64,000 bases of DNA from Aneurinibacillus sp. (GTDB lineage: Bacteria > Bacillota > UBA5301 > DYFA01): positions 27,993 to 91,992 of the forward strand of contig DYFA01000008.1 of the NCBI GenBank assembly GCA_020725425.1, read 5' to 3'. Each line of letters opens with the position of its first letter. Position 1 is the first letter of the stretch. A program made the position numbers and the translations under genes. Of the stretch, positions 21,822 to 37,300 are shown piece after piece. The notes beneath the pieces are model-generated. The model worked only from the letters and a program-made list of their open reading frames with translations, had not been told where the DNA came from and did no database searches.

Positions 21822-22582
21822 TCCCGCTCCCTCCCCTCTGCCGGCCTCTCTCCCCCGCCGCCGAGCCCCGGCGCCACGAACGGCTCGCTTCGGCCGGTGC
21901 GGATGCTCAACTCCGCTGTCCCCCGGATCTCCCAGCTCCCGTCAGCCAGCGAGTAAATGATCGCCTCGCCGGTCAGGCGTTCCCCGTTCTCCCCCACCAG
22001 CACCACTCCACCAGAGGCGGTCAACGACTCCGCCTCCACCTCCACTGCCAGCCGGTCCGCCCGGAACCAGGCCCCTTCGATCTTGGCCTCCACCGGCTGG
22101 GCGCTCGTCACCTGCCCGGTCAAAGTGTCCCACTGCAGTTCCCGGGCGCGCAGCAGGTCTCCGTTCTCCCGGGAGACGACGATGTTCCCATATAGGGAAA
22201 AACTGCCCCGTTCCGGGTAATACACGCCCCTGTCGGCCACGACGTAGAGGTACGGCCGGCCCTCCCGGTACACCGCCCCCCGCCGCACGAGGTAGAAGTC
22301 CACCTGTCGGCTGTCCCGGGAGGTCCTGACCGTCGCCACCTGGAGTTCCCACTCCTTCCGCCCTTGATTCCGCCCGACCAGGCGGATATCGCGGAAGTGG
22401 AAGCCTGGTTGCTCGTGCCCGGCGCCGGCCGGGCGGCTCTCGCCCACCGGAGCCTCCGGCGTCCGGCCGAGCAGCACCAGCGCCGCCACCGCCAGGAAGA
22501 CCGCGGCCCCCCCGAGCCAGGGGGAGGACAAGGCCTTCCGGAGCCGTCCGGCGCCGGCCGCTCTCTCCATCCCCGCAACCAT
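21818..22582 (-). CDS. Second LptC-like membrane-anchored protein
   Basis: Start refined to the ATG at 22580-22582 (MVAGMERAAG...). Single TM (WLGGAAVFLAVAALVLLG) plus a β-rich domain. TGATG stop/start overlap with lptD. Confidence 0.55.
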   Translation of the reverse strand: MVAGMERAAGAGRLRKALSSPWLGGAAVFLAVAALVLLGRTPEAPVGESRPAGAGHEQPGFHFRDIRLVGRNQGRKEWELQVATVRTSRDSRQVDFYLVRRGAVYREGRPYLYVVADRGVYYPERGSFSLYGNIVVSRENGDLLRARELQWDTLTGQVTSAQPVEAKIEGAWFRADRLAVEVEAESLTASGGVVLVGENGERLTGEAIIYSLADGSWEIRGTAELSIRTGRSEPFVAPGLGGGGERPAEGRERE

Positions 22583-24879
22583 CAGCGAGGCACCCCCGGC
22601 GTAGCGCTCTCCGGGCTCAAGAGGCCGCCCAGGGACTGCGTGTCGAACAGGAGCCTCTCCCCCGCGCCCAGCCGGAAGAGCTGGGACGGCAGGGCCTTGA
22701 TCCGCCACTCCAACCATACTTCTCTCCGCGGCTCGTCGTAGCTCAGGCGCAACTCACGGCAGTGGAGGTCCCGCACCAACGCCACCTCGCCGCGGAGCAA
22801 CCGGTTGGACCAGCCGTCGTAACTCAGGGTCACCTCGGCCCGCCACAAGTCACCCAGGGGTGTCGCCGCCTGGGCGTCAAGGCGTTCCACGCGGGAGGTG
22901 CCCAGGTTCACGGCCGCCCCCAGCTTGACGAATTTGGTCTCGCTCGCCTGATAGGAATAGATGCCGGAGAGGCGCCGCCAAGTGCCGGTATTCGGGTCGT
23001 AGCTCACCATACCGCTCGCCGACAGGCGGGGCCGGCTGATCGCCAGGCGTCCGACCAGGTCCTGGTATTGGCCGGTCAGGAGGTTGTAGCCCGTGCCGAA
23101 GTCGGCGGTAAGTCCCGCCGCCACGTAGTTCACGTTGCCGGTGACGCTCTGCGCCGGACTGATACCGGTAGAGGCGAAGGGGTTGACCCCCAGGCGGTCC
23201 TGCCAGTTGTAGCGGAGGGTGGTCGAGAGCCGGGGCAGGGGCCGGTAAGTCAGCCCCGCCCCGGTGGTCGCACCCAGGGTGTAGTCCCCGTTCTGGTAGT
23301 AGGTGGCGGTGCTGGAGCCGTTGAGAGTGGCCGTGAGCCGGGAGGCCAGAGGGTAGGACAAGCCGGTCAGCCGGCCGGTGAGGCTTCCCATCGAGAGAGC
23401 GCGGCCGTCGGGGTAATAGATTGAGGACTCCTCGTAGCGCGAGAGAGTGGCCGTGAAAAACAGCGGCAGCGGCTTGCCCCGGTGGGTGAGCGTCCGGGTC
23501 TCGAGCGCCAGTTCCGGAAAGCGGGTGTAGCGGTTCCAGGGCGGCGGCGTCTCCCCTTCCACCACCGGCGGGGGGGTGAACTGCTGCTGGGCGGAGAGGC
23601 GGACAGTGAAGTCCGGAAAGGCGCGGGCAATCTGGGTCTGATAGCCAAGGTTGTCGTAGGGCGTCTTGTCGATCTGGTGGAACCGGGTGGCGCTGGCGGC
23701 GAACCGCCAGTCCCAGTCATTGGGCAGCCGTTGGGCCGTGTTGAAGCTCAGGCGGATGTTCCGCAGGTCGAGCTGGGAGGTGCCCGCCCCGCCGTCCGGG
23801 GGGAGAGTCTCAGTCACCGTCAGCCGGTAACTGGCGCTCAGGTCGGTCAGACCGGCGGGGGACTGCTGGGTCAGTTGCAGGTACGTGCCGGCTGCCTCTT
23901 GCTTCTGGAGACTTGAGAGGTACTTCTCCTCGTGGCTTCCGCGCAGAGTCCCCTTCCAGGCCGGGCCGAACTGCTGCCGGTGGTCCACCCCCCAGAATAC
24001 CTCCTCGTCGTTCCGGTCCCGGTACCCCTTGAGGTAGAGATACCACCACCCCGCTGCGTCCCAGGGCCTGTCTCCGGCGAGGTAGTTGTGCTTGAGCCCG
24101 AGGCCGAGGCCCTTCTTCTGGTACCAGTCCAGGAAGTACGCCCCGTAGGCCGCCGGGTTGCGGTAGTAGTTGTAGGTGGTCTTGACGAACCAGCCGTCGG
24201 TCTGCGAGTAACCGAGGCGCGGCAGCTCGAACTGGTTCTCCTTCTTGAGCGGGACGATCAGGTAGGGCAGGGTAAAGAGCCGGGTCCGCCCCTCGAAATA
24301 GGAGACCTGGCGGGCCTCCAGGCGGTCGTCCAGGTACACGGTGATCTCCCTGGCCTCCAGATGGTAGTGGGGTTGCGCCAGGTTGCAGGTGGTGAGGTTG
24401 GAATCGACCAGCCGCAGCATGGACTTGCTGCTCTCCATGAAACTCCCCACGACCAGCAGGTCATCCTTGAGGTCCTTCCCCTGGTAGGTGGTGGTGACGT
24501 CGAGAAAGGTCCCCGCCTCCTGCTTCAGGTCGTAGACGACCGACCTGGCCTCCAGCCGGTCGCTGCCCTTGCGGTAGCGCACATGTCCCTCCGCCCGGAC
24601 CACGTCGTATTCCAGATCCACCCGCAGGGTGTCCGCCTCCAGGGTGAGGTCACGGTAGGTCAGCCGGACATTCCCCTCAGCCACGAGGAGCTGGGCGTCG
24701 GCTTCGAAGCGCAACCCCTTCTCCGCCACCAGGTGAACGGCGTCCGGATCGGGCGCGGCCCGGGCGGTGAGGCGGCTGCCGAGCACGAGGGCGGTCACCA
24801 GCACGAGATAACCGAGGGTGGTGCGGTGCCTGCCTCCCATCCCGCTCGACCTGCTCCGGGTCACTGCAGCCATCGTCAC
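22582..24879 (-). CDS. lptD: LPS-assembly outer-membrane protein
   Basis: 765 aa with signal peptide. N-terminal OstA-like region (LVAEGNVRLTYRDLTLEADTLRVDLEYDVVRAEGHV), a large β-barrel region rich in Y/W/G, and an aromatic-rich C-terminus. Confidence 0.8.
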   Translation of the reverse strand: MTMAAVTRSRSSGMGGRHRTTLGYLVLVTALVLGSRLTARAAPDPDAVHLVAEKGLRFEADAQLLVAEGNVRLTYRDLTLEADTLRVDLEYDVVRAEGHVRYRKGSDRLEARSVVYDLKQEAGTFLDVTTTYQGKDLKDDLLVVGSFMESSKSMLRLVDSNLTTCNLAQPHYHLEAREITVYLDDRLEARQVSYFEGRTRLFTLPYLIVPLKKENQFELPRLGYSQTDGWFVKTTYNYYRNPAAYGAYFLDWYQKKGLGLGLKHNYLAGDRPWDAAGWWYLYLKGYRDRNDEEVFWGVDHRQQFGPAWKGTLRGSHEEKYLSSLQKQEAAGTYLQLTQQSPAGLTDLSASYRLTVTETLPPDGGAGTSQLDLRNIRLSFNTAQRLPNDWDWRFAASATRFHQIDKTPYDNLGYQTQIARAFPDFTVRLSAQQQFTPPPVVEGETPPPWNRYTRFPELALETRTLTHRGKPLPLFFTATLSRYEESSIYYPDGRALSMGSLTGRLTGLSYPLASRLTATLNGSSTATYYQNGDYTLGATTGAGLTYRPLPRLSTTLRYNWQDRLGVNPFASTGISPAQSVTGNVNYVAAGLTADFGTGYNLLTGQYQDLVGRLAISRPRLSASGMVSYDPNTGTWRRLSGIYSYQASETKFVKLGAAVNLGTSRVERLDAQAATPLGDLWRAEVTLSYDGWSNRLLRGEVALVRDLHCRELRLSYDEPRREVWLEWRIKALPSQLFRLGAGERLLFDTQSLGGLLSPESATPGVPR

Positions 24880-24909: not shown

Positions 24910-26037
24910 TCAGACCTGCTCCAGCCGGGTGACGAAGAAGAGCCCGAGGAGGGCGAAGGTCAGGCTGGGCAGCCAGGCGGCAGCGACTGGTGTCAGAAGG
25001 CCGTTAACCCCCAGAGACCGGCAGAGCGGTGTCAGGACGTAGTAGGTAAGCACCAGGGCCAGGGTCCCGCCGACTCCCGCGACATGTGCCGCGCGCGGCC
25101 GCCGCAACACCCAGAGCGCCAGCGGCAGGCCGAGCAAGGCGAAGAAGAGGCTGGCGAAGGGCAGGGCGAGCTTCAGGTGGTAGTCCACCAGGAACGGCCG
25201 GACATTCACGCCGCTCCGACCGAAGAGTGTGATGTTGGCCCGAAGTTCAGCCCGGCTCATCTCCTGCGTGGTCTTCTGCTCACCGAAGAACCGCTCCACC
25301 CCCTCATCCACCCGCAGGTCGAGGCTGGAGAAGCGGGCCTCCCTGGTCACGAAGCCGTCCCGGTCCAGCTCCCGGCTGATCCCGTTCTCCAGGTGCCAGA
25401 CACCTTCGGCGTGCCGGGCAAACCGGGCGGTGATCAGTTCCGGGTAAGGATTGACTCCTCTCTTGAACACCATCACGTCTTCCATGACCAGGTTGGCCCG
25501 ATCGAAGCGGCGGATGTAGAAGACGGTGTCGTCCTGGCCGCGGAAGAAGACGTTCTCGCGGATTTCCGGGGAGGAATCCTGGAAGACGAGGCGCCGGATG
25601 ATGTTCTCGGCCGCGTGGTTGGTCCGGGGGACCACTGTCTCATTCACGAAGTAGCTGCCCGCCGAGAGGAAAAGCGTCACCGCCAGGAGCGGAGCCATGA
25701 CCCGTCCCAGGCTGAGGCCGCTTCCGACCATGATTACCAGTTCCGAGTCGCGGGAGAGCCGGTGGAGGGCGAGCAGAGCGCCCGCCAGGACGGCCACCGG
25801 GACCACCTGCACCACCAGGCCGGGCAGCCGGTAACCGAGCAGGCGCAGGACTGTGCCGGCGGCGACTCGCTTCACGATCAGCCAGTCCGCGAGGGTGAAA
25901 AGCAGGTCGGAAAGGGCCAGAACGGTGACGGCTAGCAGGGCAAGGGCGAAGGAACTGAGAAACTCACGCAGGAGATATCGATCCAGCAGGAGGACCGAGA
26001 GCGTCTTAGGCGCGGCGGACTTCTCCCGCTTCACCAC
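24910..26037 (-). CDS. lptG: LPS export ABC permease, LptF/LptG family (partner of 4591..5742)
   Basis: LLDRYLLREFLSSFALALLAVTVLALS... shows the YjgP/YjgQ topology. Confidence 0.85.
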   Translation of the reverse strand: MVKREKSAAPKTLSVLLLDRYLLREFLSSFALALLAVTVLALSDLLFTLADWLIVKRVAAGTVLRLLGYRLPGLVVQVVPVAVLAGALLALHRLSRDSELVIMVGSGLSLGRVMAPLLAVTLFLSAGSYFVNETVVPRTNHAAENIIRRLVFQDSSPEIRENVFFRGQDDTVFYIRRFDRANLVMEDVMVFKRGVNPYPELITARFARHAEGVWHLENGISRELDRDGFVTREARFSSLDLRVDEGVERFFGEQKTTQEMSRAELRANITLFGRSGVNVRPFLVDYHLKLALPFASLFFALLGLPLALWVLRRPRAAHVAGVGGTLALVLTYYVLTPLCRSLGVNGLLTPVAAAWLPSLTFALLGLFFVTRLEQV

Positions 26038-26867
26038 TGAACAGTCACGCCCAAGGCGCCGCCCGTCCGGGCGCCTGCACCGTTCGCGGTCAGATCGACC
26101 CGGTACTGTCCGAGCTCAGCGGTGACCCCGGCCGACCAGCCGGTCTCAGCGGCCGCCGTGACCGCGGCGTGATAGGACAGCCTCCCCCGGGTCAGGGTCG
26201 CCTCCGCCACCCAGCTCGACCCTTCCAGGGTGGCAGCGGCCACATCGCGCCCCTCCAGGGTCAGGCGGAGAGCGGGACTCACCTGGCGGCCGAGGGTGAG
26301 CTGGACGGTGGCTGGGATGACCGTAGATGAGCCTCCGTCGGACTTGAGGGTGGTATCGAAGGCGTCGCACACCGCTACCCCCGCCCAGGTCCGCTCCTCC
26401 GGCTGGTAGACCACCCCGAAGTCCAGGCCCAGGCCGCGCTCGGCCGGAGTCGGTCCCACCCCGTCCACCGTCAGTTGGTACTGCACCAGCCGGACCGTGG
26501 CACCGGCAGCCAGCCCCGGCCGCCACCTGCGGCCCCAGGTGTAGCCGAACGACTTCGTCTCTTCCACCCCGCCGCTGAACAAAAGCCGCGAGTCGGCCAC
26601 CACGACGGCCGCCGCGCCCGCCCCGTTGTCCGGAACGGCGTAACCGGCCACATAATTGAGTTCCAGGGGGTTCGGATCAAGAAAGGTGACGGACAGGTCG
26701 ACTCGCCCGCCGAGTCCGGGGTCGAGGAAGGCCACCATCGCCGGGTTGAGTCTGCGGGCCGCCGTCCATTCCGGGCCGCTCGCCGCAGCCGGAAGGGGAG
26801 CACTTCCCGCCCCCCAGACCAGCAGCACACCGCCCAGGAAAGCGACCGCCAGCCACCGCCCGCGCAT
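26031..26867 (-). CDS. Putative outer-membrane β-barrel protein (signal peptide, C-terminal ...GALGVTVQW)
   Basis: Start refined to the ATG at 26867 (MRGRWLAVAFLGGVLLVWGAGSA), with AGGGGGT 7 nt upstream. Alternating hydrophobic pattern and terminal Trp. 278 aa. The ORF-track N-terminus overlaps lpxD and was rejected. Confidence 0.5.
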   Translation of the reverse strand: MRGRWLAVAFLGGVLLVWGAGSAPLPAAASGPEWTAARRLNPAMVAFLDPGLGGRVDLSVTFLDPNPLELNYVAGYAVPDNGAGAAAVVVADSRLLFSGGVEETKSFGYTWGRRWRPGLAAGATVRLVQYQLTVDGVGPTPAERGLGLDFGVVYQPEERTWAGVAVCDAFDTTLKSDGGSSTVIPATVQLTLGRQVSPALRLTLEGRDVAAATLEGSSWVAEATLTRGRLSYHAAVTAAAETGWSAGVTAELGQYRVDLTANGAGARTGGALGVTVQW

Positions 26868-26923
26868 GATACTACCCCCTGCAACGACGTTGTCCACCGC
26901 GTTGCTTTTCGGCAGGGAGCGGG

Positions 26924-28027
26924 CTATTTCCTCCCTTGGGGGTTTTTCCCGGCCTGGAGCTGCCGGACGAGCTCCTCGAGCTGTGCGAGGCGCCGGCGCA
27001 ACTCCCGCACTTCCTTCAGGGTCTCGGGCAGACGGCGGGCAGCCGCCCGGGTGCGCAGCTCCTCGCTGTGCGGGCGGGCCGGGACCCCGGAGACGACCGA
27101 ACCCGGCGGGACGTCCGCCGCCACGACCGAGCAAGCCATGACCACGCTGCCGGCGCCAACGGTGAAGTGGCCGCCGATCCCCGACTTGCCCGCCATCGTG
27201 CACCGGTCCTCCAACCGCGAGGAGCCGGCCAGCGCCACCTGGGCCACGAGGAGGCAGTCCTCGCCGATTTGGGCGTTGTGTCCGACCTGCACCAGATTGT
27301 CGATCTTGGTCCCCCGGCCGATGCGGGTCTCGCCGCACGTCGCCCGGTCGACGGTGACGTTGGCCCCGATCTCGACGTCGTCCTCGACCACCACCGTGCC
27401 GATATGGGGCACCTTGCGGTGGCGGCCGCCGGTCGTCACGAAGCCGAAGCCGTCGCTGCCCAGCACCGCCCCGGGGTGGATCAGCACGTTCCGGCCGATC
27501 CGCACCCGCTCCCGCACCACGACGTTGGCATGGAGCACCGAGCCCTCTCCGATGACGCTGTCGGGGCCGACGTACACTCCCGGGTACAGGACCACCCGGT
27601 CGCCCAGGCGCACTCCCGCCTCGACCACCGCCCCCGCCCCGATCGAGACCTCGCGGCCCAGCGCCGCGCTGGGGTGAACCACGGCCTGCGGGTGGACACC
27701 GGGCGCCGGACGGTAGTCCGGGGCGAAGACTTCAAGGAGCGTCGCAAAGGCGAGACGGGGGTTGTCGACGAAAATGACCGCCCGGCCGGGTCCTCCTGCT
27801 TCCGACACCTGGTCCCGCACGGCGGCCGCGAGGATGAGCACCCCGGCCGGGCTGGCCACCGCCTCCGCTGAACGCCCCGGGTCGGCGAACGTCACGTCCG
27901 CCGGCCCCGCCTCATCCAGCCCGGCGATGCCCGTCACCGCCCTCACCGGGTCTCCCTGGAGTTCGCCGCCGACCAGGCACGCCAGTTCCTGGGCGGTCCA
28001 CACCTTCTCTTCGGCCACTGCCCTCAC
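26924..28027 (-). CDS. lpxD: UDP-3-O-acylglucosamine N-acyltransferase
   Basis: Long run of hexapeptide repeats ([45 protein letters not shown]...) and an LpxD-type N-terminus. Confidence 0.9.
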
Positions 28028-29241
28028 CTCATCAGGACGTCCACCACCGCCGCCGTCAGGTCAAGGCCGTCGGCGGGCCGCTCGCCCGCGGTCGCCACCA
28101 GCTCCGGCGCCCCGAGTCCGTGGCGTTGCGCCACCAGGGTGGCGACGCGCCGGACGTCAGCGATGATCCTGGCCTGCAGCGCGTTGCGCCGGAGCTCGAG
28201 CGGCGTCGGGGAGTCCGGTCCACGAGAGCCTGGGTCAGTCTGGGCGCCTGTTCGGCGCGCTGCGGCCGCTCCAGACCCTTGAACCGCTCCGGTCGAACTC
28301 CGGCCGGCAAGGTCCTGCAGGCGGCGGACCAACTCTTCGTTAAGAGCTTGCCGGACCGCCTCGACCTGCCGGGCGACTTCGTCCGCCATCTCGGCAGCGT
28401 ACGCCCGGAGCTCGCGGCCGGCGCTCTCCTCCACTTCCCTGGCGTAGGCAGCCAATTGATCCTCCATGTCCTTCTGGGCCGCCTTAATGTCCTGCTCGAT
28501 AGCGGCCTGCACCTGGCGGAGCTCCTCCTGCAGCGCCTCCTCCCGGGCGGCCGCCGCCGGGTCCTTGTCCTGCAGGCCCAACCGGAGCTGGAGGCTGAGC
28601 AGGCGGGCTTCCCGTTCCCGGCGGATTTGCTCGGTCCGCGCGGCCAGGGCCGCCTTCAGTTCGCCCCGTTTGACCCCGATCTGTTCATCCACCCGGGCGG
28701 CCAGGACCGCCCGGCGGGCCGCCACCTTCCGCTCGGCTTCCTCCTCCAGCCGCCGGCGCTCGGCCTCCCAGCGGCGGGCATAAACCGACTGAAGGGTGCG
28801 GAGAGCCTCTTCCCGCCCGTCCTTTTGGGCCTGACCGATGGCCGCCATCACCTGGCGGACCCTTTCGCCGGTCTGGAGCGAGGCTCCGGCCTGCTGGGTG
28901 ATCGAAGCCACCGCCGACCGCTCCGCCGCCAGGTTCCGTCGCTCACGCTCGATTTCCGCCGTAAGCTCGGTCAACTCCTGCCAGGCGGGATGGGCCGGCA
29001 TGGCGGCCGCCAGGAGGACGAAGCTTGTCCCCCGGGCGGGCGGCAGGGGGCGTTCGCCGCCGGCAGCCGCCGCCAGCGAAAGGTCCGCGCCCCGCCGGGC
29101 CGCGCTCCACCACCCTCGGCCGGCACCGCTGGTCATCGCCAGGAGACCGGCGAGGAAAGCACCGCCGAGGAGAAGAACGGCCAGAACTGTCGGGATGCGC
29201 TTGGTGGCCACTCTACTTCCGCCCCTGTCCTCCACCGGCAC
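28024..29241 (-). CDS. Membrane-anchored coiled-coil protein of unknown function between skp and lpxD (alternative GTG start at 29211)
   Basis: TM ([21 protein letters not shown]) then about 330 aa rich in E/R/A/L/Q heptads ([28 protein letters not shown]...). No family recognised. ATGA overlap with lpxD. Confidence 0.5.
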
Positions 29242-29677
29242 GGATCACGGCGTCGGTGATGTCCGCGCCGCCATACAGAACGCTCTGCTTCTCCAGCACC
29301 ACGGTGAGACCCTGCTTCTTGGCCACGTCGCCGGTCACCTGCACGACCTTGGCGAGAGCAGCCGAGACCAGGGCTTCCTTCTTCTTGTCGAGCTTCGCCT
29401 GGTACTCTTGGAAGAGCTTGACCTTGTCCTCCTGGGACAGCGAAGCCGAGTTCCGATCATATTCCTGCTGCATGGCGGCGGTTTCCTTCTCCAGTTGTTG
29501 CCGCATCGCCTTCATGTCGGGAAACTCGTTCGCCACCCGGGCGGTGTCGACGTAGCCGATCGTCGAAACCCGGTCGGCCCGCGCCAGCGACCAGCCGGTC
29601 AACCCCGCCGCGGCGGCGACCCCGACCAACACGAGAGCCAGGATCGCCGGGAACCTGAACGGAATCCGCAGGTGCAA
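29213..29677 (-). CDS. skp: OmpH/Skp periplasmic chaperone
   Basis: 154 aa, signal peptide, IGYVDTARVANEFPDMKAMRQQLEKETAAMQQEYD... is a typical Skp coiled-coil. It sits between bamA and lpxD as in Gram-negative bacteria. Confidence 0.8.
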   Translation of the reverse strand: MHLRIPFRFPAILALVLVGVAAAAGLTGWSLARADRVSTIGYVDTARVANEFPDMKAMRQQLEKETAAMQQEYDRNSASLSQEDKVKLFQEYQAKLDKKKEALVSAALAKVVQVTGDVAKKQGLTVVLEKQSVLYGGADITDAVIRAGGGQGRK

Positions 29678-29798
29678 TTGGTGTTCCTCCTCGTCGGGAT
29701 GGGTTTTGGAAAGCTGAGGGAATCAAGCTCATTGTACCGGACCGCTCAGCGGGAGGCAATGTCAAGAAATCCTCCAGCTAGCGGATTCCGTCCAGCGT

Positions 29799-31097
29799 TC
29801 ACAGGTTCCCCACCAGAGCGAGCCAGACCTTGCCCCCGCCAGCGACTAGATCCACGGTGAGGTACTCGTTGGCCGCCACCCCGTACGACAACCGCCAGGA
29901 CTCCCCCGGGTACTCCCGCTCGAATCCCCAGCGTTGAAAGGCGGAAATCCTCTTCTGGAACCGCAGCATCTGGCCGCCCTCCAGGTTCCAGAGATAGGAC
30001 AGCTGTCCCTCCCAGCCGACCGGAACCCCCACCCCCAGGTGGAGAAAGGTCTTCAAGCCGGTCAGCAGCAACCGGCTCCCCACGAGCAGTTCGCCAGGCC
30101 CGGCTGACCACCCGCCCAGCATCCGCAGTTCGGGGCCGGGAGCCTCGGCTCCCGCGCTGACCACTCCTTCCAGCCGCAGCCGCCAGGCGGTCGACTCCAC
30201 CCCGACCTCAAGCGTGGTCTGAACGCCCGGGACCAGGCGGGTCTTGGCCTGAAGCCCCCACTGGGCAATCGACGGCGTCTCCCGCACCCTCCGCTCGATC
30301 TCCTGCTGGATGGGCACCCGGTAGGCGTTCAGGAAAGCCACCGGCAAACCAACCATCAGGGCGCCCCGGGAGTCGAGTTCGGCGCTCAATTGGCGCAGGG
30401 CCACCGCCGGAACAGTCTCCGACCGCAACTGGACGTTCACCCGGTGCACCAGCGGCCCCTGGGGAACCAACCTGGCGGTGATGGTGGTCACCTCGCCCGC
30501 CTCCAGCTTCGCCTCGACCCGGAAGCCGGGCGAGTGACGCTCAAGTTCCTGCTCGAGAAGGGGCTCCAAGGTGAAGCGCGCCCAGGTAAAAGCCGCAACC
30601 GGTAAGCCGCCCAGGATTTCCCCGGCCGCGGCGTCCAGGGTGGTTACCGCTTCCCGAAGCAGGGGTTGAAGGGCCGGATCGACCCCCTCGACTTCGAGCC
30701 TGGTATAGACCTCCCGGATCACCGGCGCCACCGGGACCACGTGGAGCTTGACTTCAGTCGTCTCCCCGGCGATGACGGTCACCGCGGTCGTCTTATATCC
30801 CGCCAGCACCCGATCGAATACCTCCGCCACCACCTTCTCCACCGCCGGCCGCGAGCGCTCGACCGTCGCCACCTCCTGGCCTTGGAGAGCCTTGGTCGCC
30901 ACGGCCGCCAGCGCCTCCCGGATGCGCTCCGCCACCACTTCCGGCAACTGGCTCGCCAACTCCACCTTGACCTCCCGAACCACGGCGGGAGGAGAACCCT
31001 CAGCGGCCACGCCAAAGGCGGCCCCGAGGACCGAGGCCGCACTCACGAGGGCTGTCAGGATGATTGCCGGCCAACGCCGGGGTCGCCCGTGACTCAC
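29799..31097 (-). CDS. Secreted 432-aa protein of unknown function between bamA and skp
   Basis: Signal peptide (WPAIILTALVSAASVLGAAFG). No recognisable motifs. Confidence 0.5.
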   Translation of the reverse strand: MSHGRPRRWPAIILTALVSAASVLGAAFGVAAEGSPPAVVREVKVELASQLPEVVAERIREALAAVATKALQGQEVATVERSRPAVEKVVAEVFDRVLAGYKTTAVTVIAGETTEVKLHVVPVAPVIREVYTRLEVEGVDPALQPLLREAVTTLDAAAGEILGGLPVAAFTWARFTLEPLLEQELERHSPGFRVEAKLEAGEVTTITARLVPQGPLVHRVNVQLRSETVPAVALRQLSAELDSRGALMVGLPVAFLNAYRVPIQQEIERRVRETPSIAQWGLQAKTRLVPGVQTTLEVGVESTAWRLRLEGVVSAGAEAPGPELRMLGGWSAGPGELLVGSRLLLTGLKTFLHLGVGVPVGWEGQLSYLWNLEGGQMLRFQKRISAFQRWGFEREYPGESWRLSYGVAANEYLTVDLVAGGGKVWLALVGNL

Positions 31098-31131
31098 GCT
31101 CCACCTCCGGCGCCCATACCCCCGGGCCCTC

Positions 31132-32838
31132 CTAGAAGGTCTGGCCCAGGCTGAAGTAGGTCTTGCCGCCGTCGCGACCGATACCGTAGTCGATGCGCAT
31201 TATCCCCACCGGGGTGTCGACCCGTAACCCCACGCCGTAGCCCGTCTTGAACTTGGCGAGTTCCACCGGCTCGTTGGTGTCCCAGGCGTCGCCGGCGTCG
31301 GCAAAGAGCACTCCCGTCAAGTTCTGAGCGAGCTGAAACCGGTATTCGGCGTTGAACACCAGGTACTTGTCGCCGGAGAAGGCCATGGTCTCATAGCCCC
31401 GGATGGTGTCGGCGCCGCCCACCAGGAACCGTTCGAGCACCGGCTCCACACCGCGATAGTCGAGGAACCCTCCCGCCAGACGGACCGCCACCACCTGTCC
31501 CGACTTGCCGGCTTTCCAGTAGTGGGCGAGGTCGGTGTTATACTTGGCGAAGGTGTAGTCCGAACCCAGCAACTGGCCGGCCCACTCCACTGAGAGCTCC
31601 CTCCGCCCGCCCTGGGAGGGCTTGAGGAAGAAGTCGCGGGTGTCGTTCACGATGCTGGTCGTGATGGAGCGGCTCTTCCCGGTGCCGCCCTCAACCGGCG
31701 TCCCATCCGTGTAGGTCCGGGCCACGTCCTCCATCTTGAGCTTGGTGTAGATCCGCGTATCCTCGGAGAGCGGCCGGCCCACCGTCACCTCTCCGCCTCG
31801 CTGATGGTCGTTATAGGTCACCGGCGAACCGCCCTCGATCTGATCCAGCGTCCGCTGCGTGTCGTATACCCGGAAGCCGAGCGAGGTCCGGTGGCGGTCG
31901 AGGTACGGCTCGAAGAAGCCCACGTCGTAGGTGGTGCGCCGCTGGCCGAACTCCCACTTCACGTTGACCCGCTGCCCCCGGCCGAAGAAGTTGTCCTCGG
32001 CCACCTCGACGTAGCCGAACAGGCCGTCGCTCGAGGAGTAGCCGGCGCCGAAGGCGGCCGAACCGGTCTTTCGCTCCTTCACCTCGATGGTGAGGTCGGC
32101 GACGTCGGGATCCTGGGTTTCCGTGAACTTCCGCCCCACTTCATCGAAGAACCCGAGGTTCAGCACGCGCCGCAGCGACTTCTCGAGTTCCTTCAGGTTC
32201 AGCACGTCGCCGGACTTCACCGTGAGCTCGCGCCGGATGACGTGGTCCTTTGTCTTCTGGTTCCCGCTGATCTCGATCTTCCCGAGACGGGTCTCGGTCA
32301 GCTTGATCCTCACGGTCCCCGTCTCATCCACCGCCACGTCGGTGATGCGCAGGGGGATTCCGTAGTCCTTCACGGAACGCTCCAACAGGGCGCGCAGCCC
32401 CTCCTGGAGCTTCTTTCCGTTGATGATCTCGCCCGGTTTGAGGCCGATCGCCTCTTTCAGCGGCTCCTTCGGCACGTCCGGGGCGCCGGTCAGCGAGACC
32501 TCCTTCAACTTGGGATTCTCGATCACCTCGAAGATGACCGTCACGCCGCCCTCCGCCGGGGCGAACCGCGCCGAAGCGTTGAAGAAGTATCCCAGGTCCA
32601 TGATGGCCTGGAGGTCCTTGCGGACAGCCTCCTCCGTCGCCGGCTCACCCACCTTGGTAGACTGGATCGCGGCGAGAATCATGTCGCTTGCGACTTCACG
32701 GTTGCCTTCCACCTTGATCGCCTTAACCACCGGGTTGGCCGCCAGAACCGCCCCGGTGGCCAAGCTCCCCGCCAGGACCAGCACGAGGACGACGGCGGCA
32801 ACCGCCGCGGACCCGGGAATCGACAGAGGTTTCTTCAC
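31132..32838 (-). CDS. bamA: Outer-membrane protein assembly factor BamA (Omp85)
   Basis: Signal peptide, POTRA-like repeats (VKAIKVEGNREV..., LKEVSLTGAPDV..., IEISGNQKTKDHVIRREL) and a C-terminal β-barrel ending ...KTYFSLGQTF. GTG start with AAGGAGG 7 nt upstream. Confidence 0.85.
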   Translation of the reverse strand: MKKPLSIPGSAAVAAVVLVLVLAGSLATGAVLAANPVVKAIKVEGNREVASDMILAAIQSTKVGEPATEEAVRKDLQAIMDLGYFFNASARFAPAEGGVTVIFEVIENPKLKEVSLTGAPDVPKEPLKEAIGLKPGEIINGKKLQEGLRALLERSVKDYGIPLRITDVAVDETGTVRIKLTETRLGKIEISGNQKTKDHVIRRELTVKSGDVLNLKELEKSLRRVLNLGFFDEVGRKFTETQDPDVADLTIEVKERKTGSAAFGAGYSSSDGLFGYVEVAEDNFFGRGQRVNVKWEFGQRRTTYDVGFFEPYLDRHRTSLGFRVYDTQRTLDQIEGGSPVTYNDHQRGGEVTVGRPLSEDTRIYTKLKMEDVARTYTDGTPVEGGTGKSRSITTSIVNDTRDFFLKPSQGGRRELSVEWAGQLLGSDYTFAKYNTDLAHYWKAGKSGQVVAVRLAGGFLDYRGVEPVLERFLVGGADTIRGYETMAFSGDKYLVFNAEYRFQLAQNLTGVLFADAGDAWDTNEPVELAKFKTGYGVGLRVDTPVGIMRIDYGIGRDGGKTYFSLGQTF

Positions 32839-32878
32839 TGTTCTGCCTCCTTAGAGTGCATTCAGAGTGCGTCGAGTG

Positions 32879-33577
32879 TCAGGGACGCCCGGTCAGCGAG
32901 CGTTCGGCGATCTGCACCAGTTCGACCAGGTCCAAGGGGAGAGGGGTATCCCCTCCCTCCTCGACGGTGGCCGGCTCGGGCTGCTTCGCCACGGGAACCG
33001 GTTCAGCCGGCGCGGCAGGAACGGGCGTTGGATTTGCGGGTACCGGCACCGCCGGCGCCTGGGAGGGGTGGTCCTCCTCTGCCGGCGCAGGCTCCTCAAC
33101 CGGCGAAGGTTGAACTGAAGGCTGAACTGACGGTTGAACCGGTGAAGGTTGGGCGGCCGGCGACTGGTCCGGCCCGGGCGGGGCGGCCTGCGGGATCAGG
33201 TCGACTACCTGGCCGACCTCCCGGCCAGCGACTCCGGGCAACGTTCCCGGGCGGGCCACCTGCAGCGGAACTGGCGGGGCTGGCCGGGCCAGCTGCCACA
33301 GGGCAAAGCCACTGAACGCCAGCACGAGAAGCGCCACCCCGACGCCTATACCTGCCCAGGCCGGCCGGCGGGTCCGCCTTCCGGCCGATGGGAAGCGGAT
33401 GAGGCTCACCGCGCGCCGGCTCTCCGCCCACGCCTTCCTGACCTCCGCCTCCACCAGGCTGAGGCTCAGTTCTCCCTGGACCGACTCCTGCCGCTCGAAT
33501 TCGTTCTCGGCCTTGGCCAGCCAGTGGCGGGCGAAGCGGAGATGGTTCAAGACCGACTGCACGCCGGACATCTCCAT
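32879..33577 (-). CDS. Putative membrane anti-sigma factor (cytoplasmic N-domain, one TM, Pro-rich repetitive extracytoplasmic tail)
   Basis: TM IGVGVALLVLAFSGFALW, then PSPVQPSVQPSVQPSPVEEPAPAEE... encoded by ~12-nt tandem DNA repeats at 33100-33145. Immediately downstream of the sigma-factor gene. Confidence 0.45.
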   Translation of the reverse strand: MEMSGVQSVLNHLRFARHWLAKAENEFERQESVQGELSLSLVEAEVRKAWAESRRAVSLIRFPSAGRRTRRPAWAGIGVGVALLVLAFSGFALWQLARPAPPVPLQVARPGTLPGVAGREVGQVVDLIPQAAPPGPDQSPAAQPSPVQPSVQPSVQPSPVEEPAPAEEDHPSQAPAVPVPANPTPVPAAPAEPVPVAKQPEPATVEEGGDTPLPLDLVELVQIAERSLTGRP

Positions 33578-33583
33578 TCCTCC

Positions 33584-34231
33584 TCAAACCGAGGCCCGGA
33601 ACTCTCGGACGACGCGGGCCAACATCCCCCGGAGCCGCCGGATGGCCCGCTTCTCCAGCCGATGAAGATAGGAGACGCTGATCGCCAGCTCCTCCGCCAC
33701 CCGGCCCGGCTCCTGATCCTGCAGGTAAACGGCGGAGAGCACCCTTTGTTCCTTTTGGGGAAGGCGGGCGACAGCCACTTGGAGGAAATGGCGGACGTCG
33801 CCGGCTTCCGCTCGGGCCACCGGGTCGGATTCGGCGCCCGCCGCGACCATGGCGGCAATGGCCAGCTCACCGGAGCCCATCTGTTCCAGCGAGACGTCCC
33901 CGGCTCCGGCCTTCTGCCGGCCGAAGTAGTCCAGCATCCGGCCGCGGATGCGGTGTTGGGCAAAAGAGGGGAAGGGCACCCCGCGGTCGGGGTCGTATGC
34001 TTCCACCGCCTCGATGAGGCCGACGGTCCCTTCCTGGATGAGGTCCATGGCGTTTTCCGGCCCGGCGCCCAGCGCCAGGGCGATTCGGACCACCAGGATC
34101 TGGTACCCTTCGATCAACCGGTAACGGCTCTCGGGGTCCCCGCTCCCCTTGAACGAGCGCCACAACACCGCTTCCTCCTCCGGCGAGGGCGGTTTCCGAC
34201 TATTCAGGTGGCGGAGATACTCGTCCAACAT
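33584..34231 (-). CDS. Sigma-70 family RNA polymerase sigma factor (group-3-like region 2 and region 4)
   Basis: DLIQEGTVGLIEAVEAYDPDRGVPFPSFAQHRIRGRM (region 2.2-2.4) and AEELAISVSYLHRLEKRAIRRLR (region 4.2 HTH). Confidence 0.8.
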   Translation of the reverse strand: MLDEYLRHLNSRKPPSPEEEAVLWRSFKGSGDPESRYRLIEGYQILVVRIALALGAGPENAMDLIQEGTVGLIEAVEAYDPDRGVPFPSFAQHRIRGRMLDYFGRQKAGAGDVSLEQMGSGELAIAAMVAAGAESDPVARAEAGDVRHFLQVAVARLPQKEQRVLSAVYLQDQEPGRVAEELAISVSYLHRLEKRAIRRLRGMLARVVREFRASV

Positions 34232-34358
34232 GGTCCGGACTCTCTTTCCGCAAAGTCCTGGGGTGAGTTCGACCCCCGGAATAGTAAATCCTTCCCCGGC
34301 GGGGCGTCAATTGGTGGGGGCCCTGGCAGGATGCGGGGTTCGGCCCAGGCTCACCCCA

Positions 34359-37300
34359 CTAGAAGCGGTGGCGCGCCTCGATCCCCCACTTCAACTCGCC
34401 CCGGTTGTCGTATGAGGTCGTGAAGGTCAGCCCGTACCGGATGCGATACTCGAGGCCGATGGTCTCCCAAGGCTCGAGGTCCATTGTCCGGGTATAGGTC
34501 AAGTAGACGTTGTCCACCAGGTACTTGCCCACATGAAGCTGAACATTCTTCTCCCGGAAACGGGGAGCCAGCGAGAGTTGGTCAAGCTGCAGGGCGTCGG
34601 CCACGGCGACTTCCAGGCCGGAGAAGACCCTGTGGGAGAGCTCCTGCTCCGCCATGCGGAAGAGTTCGGCCTCCCGTCCGCCGGATCCTTGGCCGGCCAC
34701 AATCCGGGTGATGTCCCCCGGCAACGAGAGGGCCGCCACGATCTCCGCCTGGCTGAGCGGGGGCTCCGACGACAGGTTGAGCGCCAGTTTCTCCGCCGGA
34801 CCGGTCACACTGAGCTTGACCTTCAGCGTCGTCCTCGTTCCTCCTCCGCCGGTCGCGTCGGCCGGAAGGACCGCGGGAGCCTCGGTCAGCGGCACCACCG
34901 CCTCCGCCGTCACGTCCAGCGTCGGGAGAATACCCCGGTAGGCGGCGAACACCGCCTGTCCCCGCGTCACCCGGAAGGGGGTATTCAGGTAGACGATGGT
35001 TCCCCGGCTGGCCTCAGCTTCGCCCGTGAAGGTGGGTTTGCTCAGACGGCCGCGCAGGGCCAGGGTCCCATAGGCGCGAGCGTCGACGCTGCGGTCGGCG
35101 GTGACGATCCGCATGTCCTCCCGGCTGGTGACTGTCAGGTCGAGGGCGGGATCCCAGGTCACCCGGCGGGGGCCGCTCTTGGCGCCCAGAGTGAGCGTGG
35201 AGCGCCGCAGCACCGCCTGGCCGGCGATGACCGCCTCCTCCAGCGGCCCGCGCACGGTGGTGTCCACATCCAGCCAGGCTTCGAAGACCGGGCTCTGGTA
35301 GTGGATGTCCCGTCCGGTCAGAGCCAGGTCCAGGTCCCTCACTCTCAGACCCGCCAGGCCAACCCGCCCGCTGAGTCGCGCCTCCCCCCCTTTGTAAAAG
35401 CCGATCAGCTCCTGGGTCCGAACCCCGTCCAGCCCCAGTTGCACCCGGCCTCGCAGGCCGGTGATCTCCCCGCCGAGCGCCGGATGGTTCACCGTCACTC
35501 CGGCGGCCACGATCTCTCCGTCAACCTGCGGCGCGTCCGCCGGCCCGGTCAGGCGGAGCCACAGCGATCCCGGGCCGGAGAGGCGGAGAGCGGGTACGAC
35601 CAGCGAGAGCAGCCCCATGTCCCCTTGGTCCATCGCCAGGCGCAGGTTCCAGGCCTGTTCCTCCGCCTCCAAGCCCAACCGGGAGAGGAGGGTCGATGGG
35701 AGCGGCCAGGCGCCGGTGGCGGTCAGGCGGCGGTCGCCGCTCGCCATCACCACTTCCTCCAAGTTGATGGCGCCGCTGGAGTAGACTGCCCGGCCCCGGA
35801 CAGTGCTGAGCGGCATCCCGTTGACCCGGGCGCCCGTCACGGTCACGTCCAGGCTGGCCCAGGGGTCCGCGGCCCTGCCCTTCACCACCAGGTCGGCGTC
35901 AGCTTGCCCGGCCACCTCCGCCTGCGCGCCGAAGAACGCCGCCAAGGGCCGGATGTCCATCCGCCGGAGGCGGGCCTCCACTTCCACGGACGTCCGGCCG
36001 AGCCGCCCCACCGCCACCAGGAGCCCTTCGCCTTCCACCTCCCCCATCCGCAGGCGGTTGATCGTCACTTCGCCGTCGCGGAGCGCCAGATCCACGTCGC
36101 CGGACAGCTTCCACCCTCCCAGGCGCAGCTCGCCGGTCTCGGCGATCAACCGGGCGGAAGGGTTGGGGAAGCGGCCCCAGACGTGCAGGATACCCGTGAC
36201 CTTCCCGGCTATCCGGTAGGAGGAGCGTAGAGAAGCCAATTGGAGCAGATTCTCCACTTCCCCCTGGTCGAGGCGGAGCCGCAAGTCGAGTTGGGCTGTC
36301 CGGGGCTCGATTTCGCCGCTGACGAAGTAGCGTCCGCCCCCCTGCTCCACTTCCACCCCCTTGAGGAAGAACCTCCCGTCCTGGTACCGCAGGGTGCCTT
36401 TCAAGGTTTCCGCGGCGTAAGCCCGGTAAGCGACGCCGGCGCCCGCGACCTCGCCTTCCAGCACGGGCTGGCGCAGGTTGCCCCGCACTGTGCCTTGGAA
36501 GGAGCCGGTTCCCCGCCACGCCCCCTCCTCTGCCCCGGGCAGGGGCAGGCGGGCCAGATCGAGGCGCTCCGCCGCCACCCGCAGGTCCAGCTCCTGGCCG
36601 ACCAGACGGCCCTCTCCCGTCACAGCCGCGCCCTCCGCCTCGACCTCAAGCCGGTCGATCTCCAGTGCACCATCGGCGTAGCGGAAGCGGGCGGCGGCCC
36701 GGGTGTAGGGAAAGCCGGCCACCCTTCCGGCGGCCAGAGCCACCTGGCCCGTCACGACTGCGGTGCGCGCCGGGCCGCGCAGCACAAACGCGCCGTCGGT
36801 CGTGCCGCTGAGCGCGGCCTGGACGCCGGCCAGCGCCAGAACCGTATCGGCTGGCAGCGCGCCCACGGTCAGGGTGAGGTCAAGGGGGTACTCCGGCCCC
36901 AGGCTCACCGTCCCGCTTGCCTGGAGAGACCCCTCGGCCCGGTGGACCTCCATTCCCTCCAGGACAAGCTCCCGGCGTGTCAGGCGGAAGCGTCCCCGCC
37001 CATCCGTGAACGCCTGTCGCCGGAAGGATGGGGAGAACAGGGTAAACTCGCCGGAAAGCTGCGGGTCATCCTCGGTTCCGCCCAGTTCCGCCAGTATGTC
37101 AGCCGAGCCGTCCAGCGTCATCCCCGGAATGTACTGGGCCAGGGCTGAAAGCTGCACCCCCTGCCCGCTCAGCGTTCCGGAAAGCCGCCCGTCGGCGGTG
37201 CGGCGTCCGTAGCCGGATAACCGTCCGTCCGGAGAGGAGGCGGTGAAATAGTCCACGGCCACTTCCCCCCGGCTGACGGTGAACCCGGCCCGGGCGGTGG

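What the first reader, a model, noticed from the sequence alone, without database searches (positions are those of the whole stretch)
29799..31097. Unannotated 432-aa secreted protein occupying the slot between bamA and skp
The bamA-skp-lpxD-fabZ-lpxA-lpxB core order is highly conserved in Gram-negatives. Here an extra secreted protein with no recognisable family sits between bamA and skp. Its position argues for a role in OMP biogenesis or BAM function in an organism that appears to lack the BamB-E lipoproteins.
Basis: inference. Interest (0 to 1): 0.55.

Follow-up and report, generated by a model that had tools for sequence, protein, structure and literature searches.

The report
SonA: small POTRA-barrel beside BamA
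The gene between bamA and skp is real and encodes an outer-membrane protein of the SonA family, first described in February 2026 in other two-membraned Firmicutes; its function in building the outer membrane is still unknown.

Summary
Window 29799..31097 (-) is a real 432-aa gene with a good ribosome-binding site and an export signal. It lies 34 bp after bamA and 121 bp before skp.

The "no recognisable family" part is out of date. Pfam, NCBIfam and PDB sequence searches find nothing. However, the protein is a full-length homologue of Acetonema longum F7NM22, published as SonA (PMC13018214). Identity is 27% (BLASTP E 4e-37; profile E 1.5e-42).

It has the SonA architecture: three beta-alpha-alpha-beta-beta POTRA-like modules and a compact 10-strand C-terminal barrel. 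It also has the SonA context, sonB-bamA-sonA-skp.

New here:
- The family, about 240 clusters at 50% identity, also fills this slot in Halanaerobiales, in this high-GC Bacillota lineage, and in MAGs labelled Armatimonadota.
- The three modules are copies of one another but show no sequence relation to BamA's POTRA domains.
- SonB lacks a signal peptide and always follows a sigma-factor gene, so it looks like an anti-sigma factor. V. parvula lacks SonA and SonB, and its consecutive tamB and bamA locus tags leave no room for the sigma gene.

The most likely function is an outer-membrane-anchored periplasmic scaffold for BamA/TamB/Skp. This is unproven. It is a new member of a known kind, of moderate interest.

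The parts
29799..31097 (-). sonA orthologue, 432 aa including signal peptide
   Evidence: ORF. BLASTP to A. longum SonA F7NM22 (= P0048): 27% identity over 415 columns, E 4e-37. The profile of the window clade hits P0048 at E 1.5e-42.
31002..31097 (-). predicted Sec signal peptide (about residues 1-32), no lipobox
   Evidence: Sequence inspection. Residues 1-34 have low pLDDT, with a helix at 9-26. All family members have similar N-termini. A. longum SonA is listed as Sec/SPI.
30726..30986 (-). POTRA-like module 1 (residues 38-124, beta-alpha-alpha-beta-beta)
   Evidence: AF2 secondary structure. hhalign to module 2: 97.9%, E 3.7e-13.
30456..30725 (-). POTRA-like module 2 (residues 125-214), carries the GLPVxAxxW motif
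   Evidence: W172 is invariant and P166 nearly invariant in 90 sequences.
30189..30455 (-). POTRA-like module 3 (residues 215-303), carries the GLPVxF motif
   Evidence: P252 is invariant.
29802..30188 (-). C-terminal 10-strand beta-barrel domain (residues 304-432), ending in WLALVGNL
   Evidence: The domain-only AF2 model has pLDDT 89.1, pTM 0.77 and 10 strands. Best Foldseek match is the designed 10-strand transmembrane barrel 8uzl, TM 0.53.
31102..31108 (-). ribosome-binding site GGAGGTG for sonA
31132..32838 (-). bamA (568 aa, 3 POTRA domains + Omp85 barrel)
32879..33577 (-). sonB orthologue (232 aa): cytoplasmic N-terminal helix motif, one transmembrane helix, Pro-rich tail; anti-sigma-like
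   Evidence: 34% identity over 98 aa, E 2e-11, to the A. longum ORF in the SonB position. 36% over 50 aa, E 9e-11, to the S. sputigena ORF. Family layout.
33584..34231 (-). sigma-70 family factor (215 aa; regions 2 and 4), 6 bp upstream of sonB
   Evidence: Present with SonB in 71 of 76 SonA loci that have enough flank.
34359..39176 (-). tamB (1605 aa)
   Evidence: PF04357, 2.9e-44
29213..29677 (-). skp / ompH (154 aa)
   Evidence: PF03938, 6e-17
29731..29759 (-). promoter-like site (TTGCCT-17-TACAAT) in the sonA-skp gap; consensus match only
34281..34310 (-). promoter-like site (TTGACG-18-TACTAT) upstream of the sigma gene; consensus match only

Best explanation
The gene is the orthologue of SonA, the small 'POTRA-barrel' outer-membrane protein of diderm Firmicutes.

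Shown by tools here:
- Full-length homology to A. longum SonA.
- A Sec-type N-terminus.
- Three tandem beta-alpha-alpha-beta-beta modules of about 88 aa that are copies of one another.
- A compact 10-strand C-terminal barrel with very short loops.
- The conserved gene order tamB - sigma - sonB - bamA - sonA - skp - (unknown) - lpxD.

Inferred:
- The barrel is an outer-membrane anchor.
- The working part is the periplasmic array of POTRA-like modules. Like POTRA domains elsewhere, these would bind partner polypeptides by beta-strand augmentation.
- The most likely job is a docking scaffold for the ancestral BamA/TamB/Skp outer-membrane biogenesis machinery. That machinery has only three POTRA domains on BamA and no reported BamB-E.
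- sonA is probably transcribed with sigma-sonB-bamA, given gaps of 6, 40 and 34 bp.

My confidence that this is a SonA orthologue is about 0.9. My confidence in the scaffold mechanism is about 0.4. The figure below is a blend of the two.
For: Identity:
- P0048 is UniRef F7NM22, A. longum SonA.
- BLASTP of the window protein against P0048 gives 27% identity and E 4e-37. This meets the paper's own homologue criteria of 25% identity and 1e-30.
- The window-clade profile hits P0048 at E 1.5e-42 over residues 17-426.
- Against the Selenomonas sputigena slot protein: 27% identity, E 1e-44.

Architecture:
- AF2 full-length model, pLDDT 79.8: three b-a-a-b-b modules and 10 strands.
- The 50 best PDB Foldseek hits listed are all Omp85-family proteins (BamA, TamA, FhaC, CdiB, Toc75), E 1e-10 to 4e-6.
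- The barrel modelled alone has pLDDT 89 and pTM 0.77.

Context:
- The same order is seen in A. longum, S. sputigena and 80 Negativicutes loci.
- It is also seen in Anoxybacter fermentans, Halanaerobiales, in Armatimonadota-labelled MAGs, in the window clade, and in two members only 19-20% identical.

Periplasmic modules carry more of the conservation. Window versus A. longum identity is 27-34% in the modules and 16% in the barrel.

Published work on the orthologue reports detection in A. longum, co-expression with BamA with upregulation during germination, and insertion into liposomes.
Against: - No function has been demonstrated for any SonA.
- Cross-linking co-IP with anti-BamA in A. longum recovered a porin and an S55 peptidase, not SonA.
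- V. parvula and Acidaminococcus fermentans keep BamA and TamB but lack SonA, so SonA is not indispensable to BamA or TamB.
- The modules have no detectable sequence relation to BamA POTRA domains (hhalign probability <=1.4%). Transferring 'POTRA function' therefore rests on fold alone.
- Barrel closure was not checked on coordinates, because none were available to me.
Confidence: 0.6

Rival explanations
1. SonA is the missing outer-membrane partner of TamB, a functional stand-in for TamA. TamB's C-terminal domain would dock on the SonA POTRA-like array, and the small barrel would anchor the bridge in the OM.
For: - tamB heads the same conserved cluster in the window and in most of the loci fetched.
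- TamA also has three POTRA domains, and TamA from P. aeruginosa is among the best structural hits, with the highest TM of the list (0.23).
- No TamA homologue exists in A. longum although TamB is expressed.
- The SonA authors raise this possibility.
Against: - V. parvula keeps TamB without SonA.
- In Borrelia, TamB binds BamA directly (PMC5582053, abstract), so BamA could serve as the partner here too.
- The barrel has 10 strands rather than 16, and the barrel modelled alone gives no Omp85 match.
- No interaction data exist.
Confidence: 0.25
2. SonA is the outer-membrane sensor of a trans-envelope signalling module: SonA, then the bitopic anti-sigma factor SonB, then the adjacent sigma factor. 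The module would report the state of OMP assembly and autoregulate bamA-sonA(-skp).
For: - SonB has no signal peptide or lipobox. It has a conserved cytoplasmic N-terminal helix motif, one transmembrane helix and a Pro-rich periplasmic tail.
- SonB directly follows a sigma-70-family gene, with a 6-bp gap in the window.
- Sigma and SonB accompany SonA in 71 of 76 loci with enough flank, including A. longum, Halanaerobiales and the Armatimonadota-labelled MAGs.
- V. parvula lacks SonA and SonB. Its TamB, BamA and Skp genes carry consecutive locus tags Vpar_0526, 0527 and 0528-30, which leaves no room for the sigma gene. Genes on both sides of bamA are therefore missing together.
Against: - The SonB N-terminus matches no known anti-sigma family.
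- No binding or regulon data exist.
- Co-loss is seen in one lineage only, and the sigma loss is inferred from locus-tag numbering.
- POTRA-like arrays are not known as signalling domains.
Confidence: 0.2
3. SonA is a self-inserting 'pioneer' barrel. It would seed conversion of the outer spore membrane into an outer membrane at germination, before BamA is present. This is the model of the SonA paper.
For: A. longum SonA and BamA insert into liposomes at physiological temperature and are upregulated at germination. An S55 (SpoIVB-like) peptidase gene lies next to tamB in the window and its relatives.
Against: - The same paper finds no correlation between SonA presence and sporulation ability among Negativicutes.
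- Selenomonadaceae carry it.
- Spontaneous liposome insertion is a general property of small barrels, as the paper itself notes.
Confidence: 0.1
4. SonA is an ordinary small OMP, such as an adhesin, a porin-like anchor or a peptidoglycan tether. Its link to bamA would be only historical synteny.
For: The barrel modelled alone resembles generic small barrels: a designed TMB10, OmpA, PcoB and KdgM. No catalytic or transport motif was found.
Against: - Adjacency to bamA persists down to 19-20% identity and across several orders.
- Gaps to neighbouring genes are operon-like.
- Its external loops are very short, which is poor for adhesion.
- The periplasmic modules are conserved more strongly than the barrel.
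Confidence: 0.05

Closest known systems
SonA of Acetonema longum (UniProt F7NM22; Beskrovnaya et al., Nat Commun 2026, PMC13018214)
   Same: - Homologous over the full length (27% identity, E 4e-37).
- Same size (426 vs 432 aa) and a Sec-type signal.
- Three b-a-a-b-b modules plus a 10-strand barrel.
- Same position in tamB-sigma-sonB-bamA-sonA-skp.
   Different: - The host is a high-GC (about 68%) Bacillota MAG, not a Negativicute.
- Only 16% identity in the barrel.
- One Skp gene and a 405-aa coiled-coil ORF follow it here. A. longum instead has Skp, a 319-aa protein and a second Skp.
- Nothing experimental is known for this member.
Omp85 superfamily: BamA and TamA (also FhaC, CdiB, Toc75)
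   Same: N-terminal periplasmic b-a-a-b-b (POTRA-type) modules are followed by a C-terminal OM barrel. BamA of these organisms and TamA also have three modules. The 50 best PDB structural matches of the full-length model are Omp85 proteins.
   Different: - The barrel has 10 strands, not 16.
- There are no Pfam Omp85 or POTRA hits.
- There is no profile-profile similarity to the neighbouring BamA, in modules or barrel.
- The barrel modelled alone gives no Omp85 hit.
- Global TM-scores are only 0.16-0.23.
So it resembles Omp85 proteins in layout, but it does not qualify as a member.
BAM accessory lipoproteins BamB-E
   Different: SonA has no lipobox and no cysteine, so it is not a lipoprotein. 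It has an integral barrel and no fold relation to BamB-E. It was not recovered with BamA in A. longum.
Sigma/anti-sigma envelope modules (sigmaE-RseA; FecA-FecR-FecI). Comparison from general knowledge; relevant to the SonB side finding.
   Same: A sigma-70-family gene is immediately followed by a bitopic membrane protein with a cytoplasmic N-terminal domain. Both are embedded among OM-biogenesis genes, with an OM barrel protein encoded in the same cluster.
   Different: There is no sequence match of SonB to RseA, FecR or other anti-sigma families. The sigma factor scores like group-3 factors (FliA/WhiG/SigE-like) but below every family cut-off except the general sigma-70 superfamily model TIGR02937. 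No functional data exist.

Membership tests
SonA (as defined in PMC13018214) | Sequence homology to A. longum F7NM22 (the paper's cut-offs: 25% identity, E 1e-30) | tested here: met
   P0048 = F7NM22. BLASTP 27% identity, E 4e-37. Profile E 1.5e-42, full length.
SonA (as defined in PMC13018214) | Three N-terminal beta-alpha-alpha-beta-beta (POTRA-type) domains | tested here: met
   AF2 model: modules at residues 42-122, 129-212 and 219-302. The modules are mutually homologous at 96-98% hhalign probability.
SonA (as defined in PMC13018214) | Ten-stranded C-terminal beta-barrel | tested here: met
   Ten strands in both models. The domain model has pLDDT 89 and pTM 0.77. Its best match is a designed 10-strand transmembrane barrel. 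Barrel closure was not inspected on coordinates.
SonA (as defined in PMC13018214) | Synteny sonB-bamA-sonA-skp | tested here: met
   Window genes at 32879..33577, 31132..32838, 29799..31097 and 29213..29677, all on the minus strand. Same order in A. longum.
SonA (as defined in PMC13018214) | Outer-membrane localisation, co-expression with BamA, insertion into lipid bilayers | not testable with these tools
   Only indirect evidence: a Sec-type N-terminus, a 34-bp gap after bamA with its own ribosome-binding site, and weak PDB sequence hits only to designed transmembrane barrels.
Omp85 superfamily (BamA/TamA/TpsB) | 16-stranded Omp85 barrel (Pfam PF01103) | tested here: not met
   No Pfam hit in the window protein or in 90 family members. 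The barrel has 10 strands. hhalign barrel versus BamA barrel gives probability 0.9%. The domain-only fold search returns no Omp85.
Omp85 superfamily (BamA/TamA/TpsB) | POTRA domains recognisable by sequence (PF07244 and relatives) | tested here: not met
   No Pfam POTRA hit. hhalign of each module against each BamA POTRA gives <=1.4%, while the BamA POTRAs match each other at 95-97% as a positive control.
Omp85 superfamily (BamA/TamA/TpsB) | POTRA fold (b-a-a-b-b) N-terminal to a barrel | tested here: met
   Secondary-structure order. Foldseek hits to BamA, TamA, FhaC, CdiB and Toc75 at E 1e-10 to 4e-6.
BAM accessory lipoproteins (BamB-E) | Lipoprotein signal peptide with lipobox cysteine | tested here: not met
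   There is no cysteine anywhere in the 432-aa sequence.
BAM accessory lipoproteins (BamB-E) | Stable association with BamA | not testable with these tools
   For the A. longum orthologue, co-IP was negative.

The most novel reading that the evidence does not exclude
The sigma factor, SonB and SonA together form a previously unrecognised envelope-signalling circuit built into the outer-membrane gene cluster of diderm Bacillota. SonA would be an OM POTRA-barrel sensor, SonB a bitopic anti-sigma factor rather than an OM lipoprotein, and the sigma factor would drive bamA-sonA(-skp). This would be a Terrabacterial counterpart of sigmaE/RseA or FecA/FecR/FecI. A weaker version is that SonA is the long-sought OM partner of TamB in bacteria without TamA.
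Probability: 0.2. Interest if true: 0.75.

Novelty: new member of a known kind. Interest (0 to 1): 0.35.

Why it matters
How bacteria outside the Proteobacteria assemble an outer membrane without BamB-E, TamA and Lol is an open question. SonA is one of very few candidate extra components.

The window shows that SonA is not a Negativicutes peculiarity. The same gene in the same slot is found in Halanaerobiales, in this high-GC Bacillota lineage, and in MAGs labelled Armatimonadota. That pattern suggests it is an old part of the diderm Bacillota OM cluster.

Two points from this work could redirect experiments:
- The POTRA-like modules are an internal triplication with no sequence link to BamA, so SonA is not simply a shortened BamA copy.
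- SonB looks like an anti-sigma factor paired with a conserved sigma gene. This suggests the cluster carries its own regulator.

The gene itself, however, is a re-discovery of a published family.

Tried and rejected
- **Family libraries.** Pfam and NCBIfam scans of the protein, and Pfam scans of 90 relatives, gave nothing.
- **PDB by sequence.** A profile search found only weak hits to de novo designed beta-barrels.
- **Duplicated BamA.** I tested whether SonA is a shortened copy of BamA. hhalign of whole profiles and of separate domains against an alignment of 78 BamA sequences (the window's plus 77 from the fetched loci) was negative. Recent derivation from BamA is rejected. A very ancient common origin cannot be excluded.
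- **Omp85-like barrel.** I tested whether the barrel alone resembles part of an Omp85 barrel. It does not; it matches generic small barrels.
- **Broad genome scans.** The search for related loci with broad alignments A2, A3 and A4 failed because no stretch was conserved enough. The narrower A5 worked but returned mostly Selenomonadaceae.
- **Alignment-based protein search.** The search for homologous proteins with the 90-sequence alignment added only two proteins.
- **Paper supplements.** The supplementary tables of the SonA paper are not held. I made the link to F7NM22 through an exact cluster look-up instead.
- **Enzyme identity.** Some NCBI records call homologues 'acylphosphatase'. No Pfam or NCBIfam support exists, so I treat this as a mis-annotation.
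- **Lipoprotein reading.** Rejected for both SonA (no cysteine) and SonB (no signal peptide).

Full report
**1. The observation**

Window 29799..31097 (-) is a 432-aa ORF with a GTG start. A GGAGGTG ribosome-binding site lies 4 nt upstream, and the ORF begins 34 bp after the stop codon of the preceding gene.

That preceding gene, 31132..32838 (-), is BamA. It matches TIGR03303 at 299 bits and Pfam Omp85 at 5e-47, and has three POTRA stretches. The following gene, 29213..29677 (-), is Skp/OmpH, and LpxD is at 26924..28027 (-).

The window is 65-72% G+C and is full of long spurious ORFs on the opposite strand, so length is no argument. The gene is real because it has 12 close homologues (56-100% identity). 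A profile of these finds 242 clusters at 50% identity, nearly all 410-450 aa with signal-peptide-like N-termini.

The N-terminus has the layout of a Sec signal peptide. The protein has no cysteine, so it is not a lipoprotein. Pfam and NCBIfam find nothing for it, and Pfam finds nothing for 90 diverse relatives.

**2. What it is**

An AlphaFold2 model (pLDDT 79.8) shows three consecutive beta-alpha-alpha-beta-beta modules at residues 42-122, 129-212 and 219-302. Ten beta-strands follow at 305-431.

Against the PDB, the 50 best matches listed are all Omp85-family proteins: BamA, TamA, FhaC, CdiB and Toc75. E-values run from 1e-10 to 4e-6, though global TM-scores are low at 0.16-0.23.

The C-terminal 136 residues modelled alone give pLDDT 89.1, pTM 0.77 and ten strands joined by very short loops. 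Their best match is a designed 10-strand transmembrane barrel (8uzl, TM 0.53). Next come generic small or partial barrels (OmpA, porins, PcoB, KdgM, nitrobindin), and no Omp85 protein appears.

**3. It is a published family**

A literature search found Beskrovnaya et al., Nat Commun, 14 Feb 2026 (PMC13018214). [quoted passage not shown] SonA is encoded in a sonB-bamA-sonA-skp1 unit that is syntenic in all but two of the 36 Negativicutes examined. It is co-expressed with BamA and able to insert into liposomes.

An exact look-up shows that my hit P0048 is F7NM22 itself. The window protein aligns to it over its full length at 27% identity, E 4e-37. The window-clade profile hit it at E 1.5e-42. 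Both exceed the paper's own homologue cut-offs.

The A. longum contig reads TolC - TamB - sigma70 - 186 aa - BamA - SonA - Skp - 319 aa - Skp - LpxD. The window reads S55 peptidase - TamB - sigma70 - 232 aa - BamA - 432 aa - Skp - 405 aa - LpxD. The 232-aa ORF is the SonB orthologue, with 34% identity over 98 aa and E 2e-11.

**4. Distribution beyond the paper**

The paper's text does not mention Halanaerobiales or Limnochordia. I found the same gene in the same slot in the following:
- 80 genomes, mostly Selenomonadaceae, including Selenomonas sputigena ATCC 33150 and Mitsuokella multacida DSM 20544.
- Anoxybacter fermentans, Halanaerobiales, complete genome.
- The window's own clade.
- MAGs labelled Armatimonadota.
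- Two metagenomic members only 19-20% identical to the window protein.

Single-sequence searches with the window's proteins recover the order TamB - sigma - SonB - BamA - SonA - Skp(-Skp) - LpxD in most of the first 86 loci fetched. Most of the exceptions are consistent with loci cut short at a contig end.

The Armatimonadota label is NCBI's only. Those MAGs also carry a SpoIVB-type S55 peptidase next to tamB, as the window does. Spread outside Bacillota is therefore unproven.

**5. Relation to Omp85**

The three SonA modules are homologous to one another (hhalign 96-98%, E 1e-9 to 4e-13). None matches any of the three POTRA domains of the neighbouring BamA family (<=1.4%). The BamA POTRAs do match each other (95-97%), which serves as a positive control. 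Whole-profile comparison is also negative.

SonA therefore shares the Omp85 layout and the POTRA fold. It fails the sequence tests and the 16-strand barrel test for membership. It is not a recent truncated copy of BamA.

Conservation is higher in the periplasmic modules than in the barrel. Window versus A. longum identity is 27-34% in the modules and 16% in the barrel. Conserved motifs include VFxRVLxGY, GLPVxAxxW, LPGF/LPEF and GLPVxF. This suggests that the barrel is an anchor and the modules do the work.

**6. Mechanism**

My best reading is an OM-anchored periplasmic scaffold that binds partner polypeptides by beta-augmentation. It would serve the BamA/TamB/Skp machinery, which here has only three POTRA domains on BamA. 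The support is conserved synteny and the published co-expression.

The evidence against is real. BamA co-IP in A. longum did not recover SonA. V. parvula and A. fermentans do without it.

The rivals are:
- OM partner of TamB (no TamA exists in these organisms).
- Sensor for the sigma/SonB pair.
- The paper's germination 'pioneer' model, which is weakened by the lack of correlation with sporulation.
- A bystander OMP.

**7. Side finding**

SonB is called a putative OM lipoprotein in the paper. In A. longum, Selenomonadaceae, the window clade, Halanaerobiales and the Armatimonadota-labelled MAGs it has no signal peptide. It has a conserved cytoplasmic N-terminal helix motif, a basic stretch, one transmembrane helix and a Pro/Ala-rich tail.

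It directly follows a sigma-70-family gene in 71 of 76 SonA loci with enough flank. In V. parvula, TamB, BamA and Skp have consecutive locus tags (Vpar_0526, 0527 and 0528-30), and the paper reports that SonA and SonB are absent there. The consecutive tags leave no room for the sigma gene either, so genes on both sides of bamA are missing together.

This reads like a sigma/anti-sigma pair functionally tied to SonA. It is an inference, not a demonstration.

**8. Verdict**

The gene is a new, non-Negativicute member of the SonA family, which is already published. Interest is moderate. The function remains open, and the sigma/SonB/SonA link is the most promising lead.

Noticed in passing
window 32879..33577 (-) and 33584..34231 (-): The SonB orthologue has no signal peptide or lipobox. 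It has a conserved cytoplasmic N-terminal helix motif, one transmembrane helix and a Pro-rich tail, and it lies 6 bp after a sigma-70-family gene. The pair accompanies SonA in 71 of 76 loci with enough flank, including A. longum. V. parvula lacks SonB and SonA, and its consecutive tamB/bamA locus tags leave no room for the sigma gene. This looks like a sigma/anti-sigma pair rather than the 'OM lipoprotein' of the SonA paper.
   Followed up: partly
window 39288..41342 (-): A 684-aa protein with a SpoIVB-type Peptidase_S55 domain lies directly upstream of tamB. The same is true in L001, L003 and L089/L090. In A. longum an S55-domain protein (F7NM31) was one of only two proteins that co-purified with BamA (PMC13018214).
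   Followed up: partly
window 28024..29241 (-): A 405-aa Glu/Arg/Ala-rich ORF follows skp. It appears coiled-coil from its composition, has an N-terminal hydrophobic segment and has no family hit. It occupies the place where Negativicutes, Halanaerobiales and the Armatimonadota-labelled MAGs have 'Skp - unknown protein of about 320-416 aa - second Skp'. A. longum's 319-aa protein has a faint OmpH hit. BLASTP to the S. sputigena counterpart was not significant.
   Followed up: partly
window 26031..26885 (-): An ORF with a signal-peptide-like start (MRGRWLAVAFLGG...) lies between lpxD and lptF/G and has no family hit. The same slot holds a YjbH-like OM barrel in A. longum and Anoxybacter fermentans.
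   Followed up: no
window 22582..24879 (-) and 18650..21124 (-): The 765-aa protein gives only a weak N-terminal LptD hit (1.6e-12, far below the cut-off) and no Pfam hit. An 824-aa ORF with no hit lies between lptA and lptB. The LPS translocon of this lineage is therefore very divergent.
   Followed up: no
window 41843..42985 (-): A flagellar P-ring protein FlgI (PF02119, 4.6e-134) is consistent with a diderm-type flagellum in this Bacillota MAG.
   Followed up: no
proteins P0193, P0194, P0211 (Selenomonadaceae; Selenomonas sp. oral taxon 920): NCBI records name these SonA homologues 'acylphosphatase'. No Pfam match supports this in the 90 family members scanned, which included the representatives of these clusters (P0069, P0059) but not these records themselves. 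It appears to be a propagated mis-annotation.
   Followed up: partly
window 29731..29759 (-) and 34281..34310 (-): These are the only two sigma-70-type promoter-like matches in 28000..34600, against 0.2 expected from shuffles. One lies just upstream of skp and one just upstream of the sigma gene. This fits a sigma-sonB-bamA-sonA transcript and a separate skp start. They are consensus matches only.
   Followed up: no
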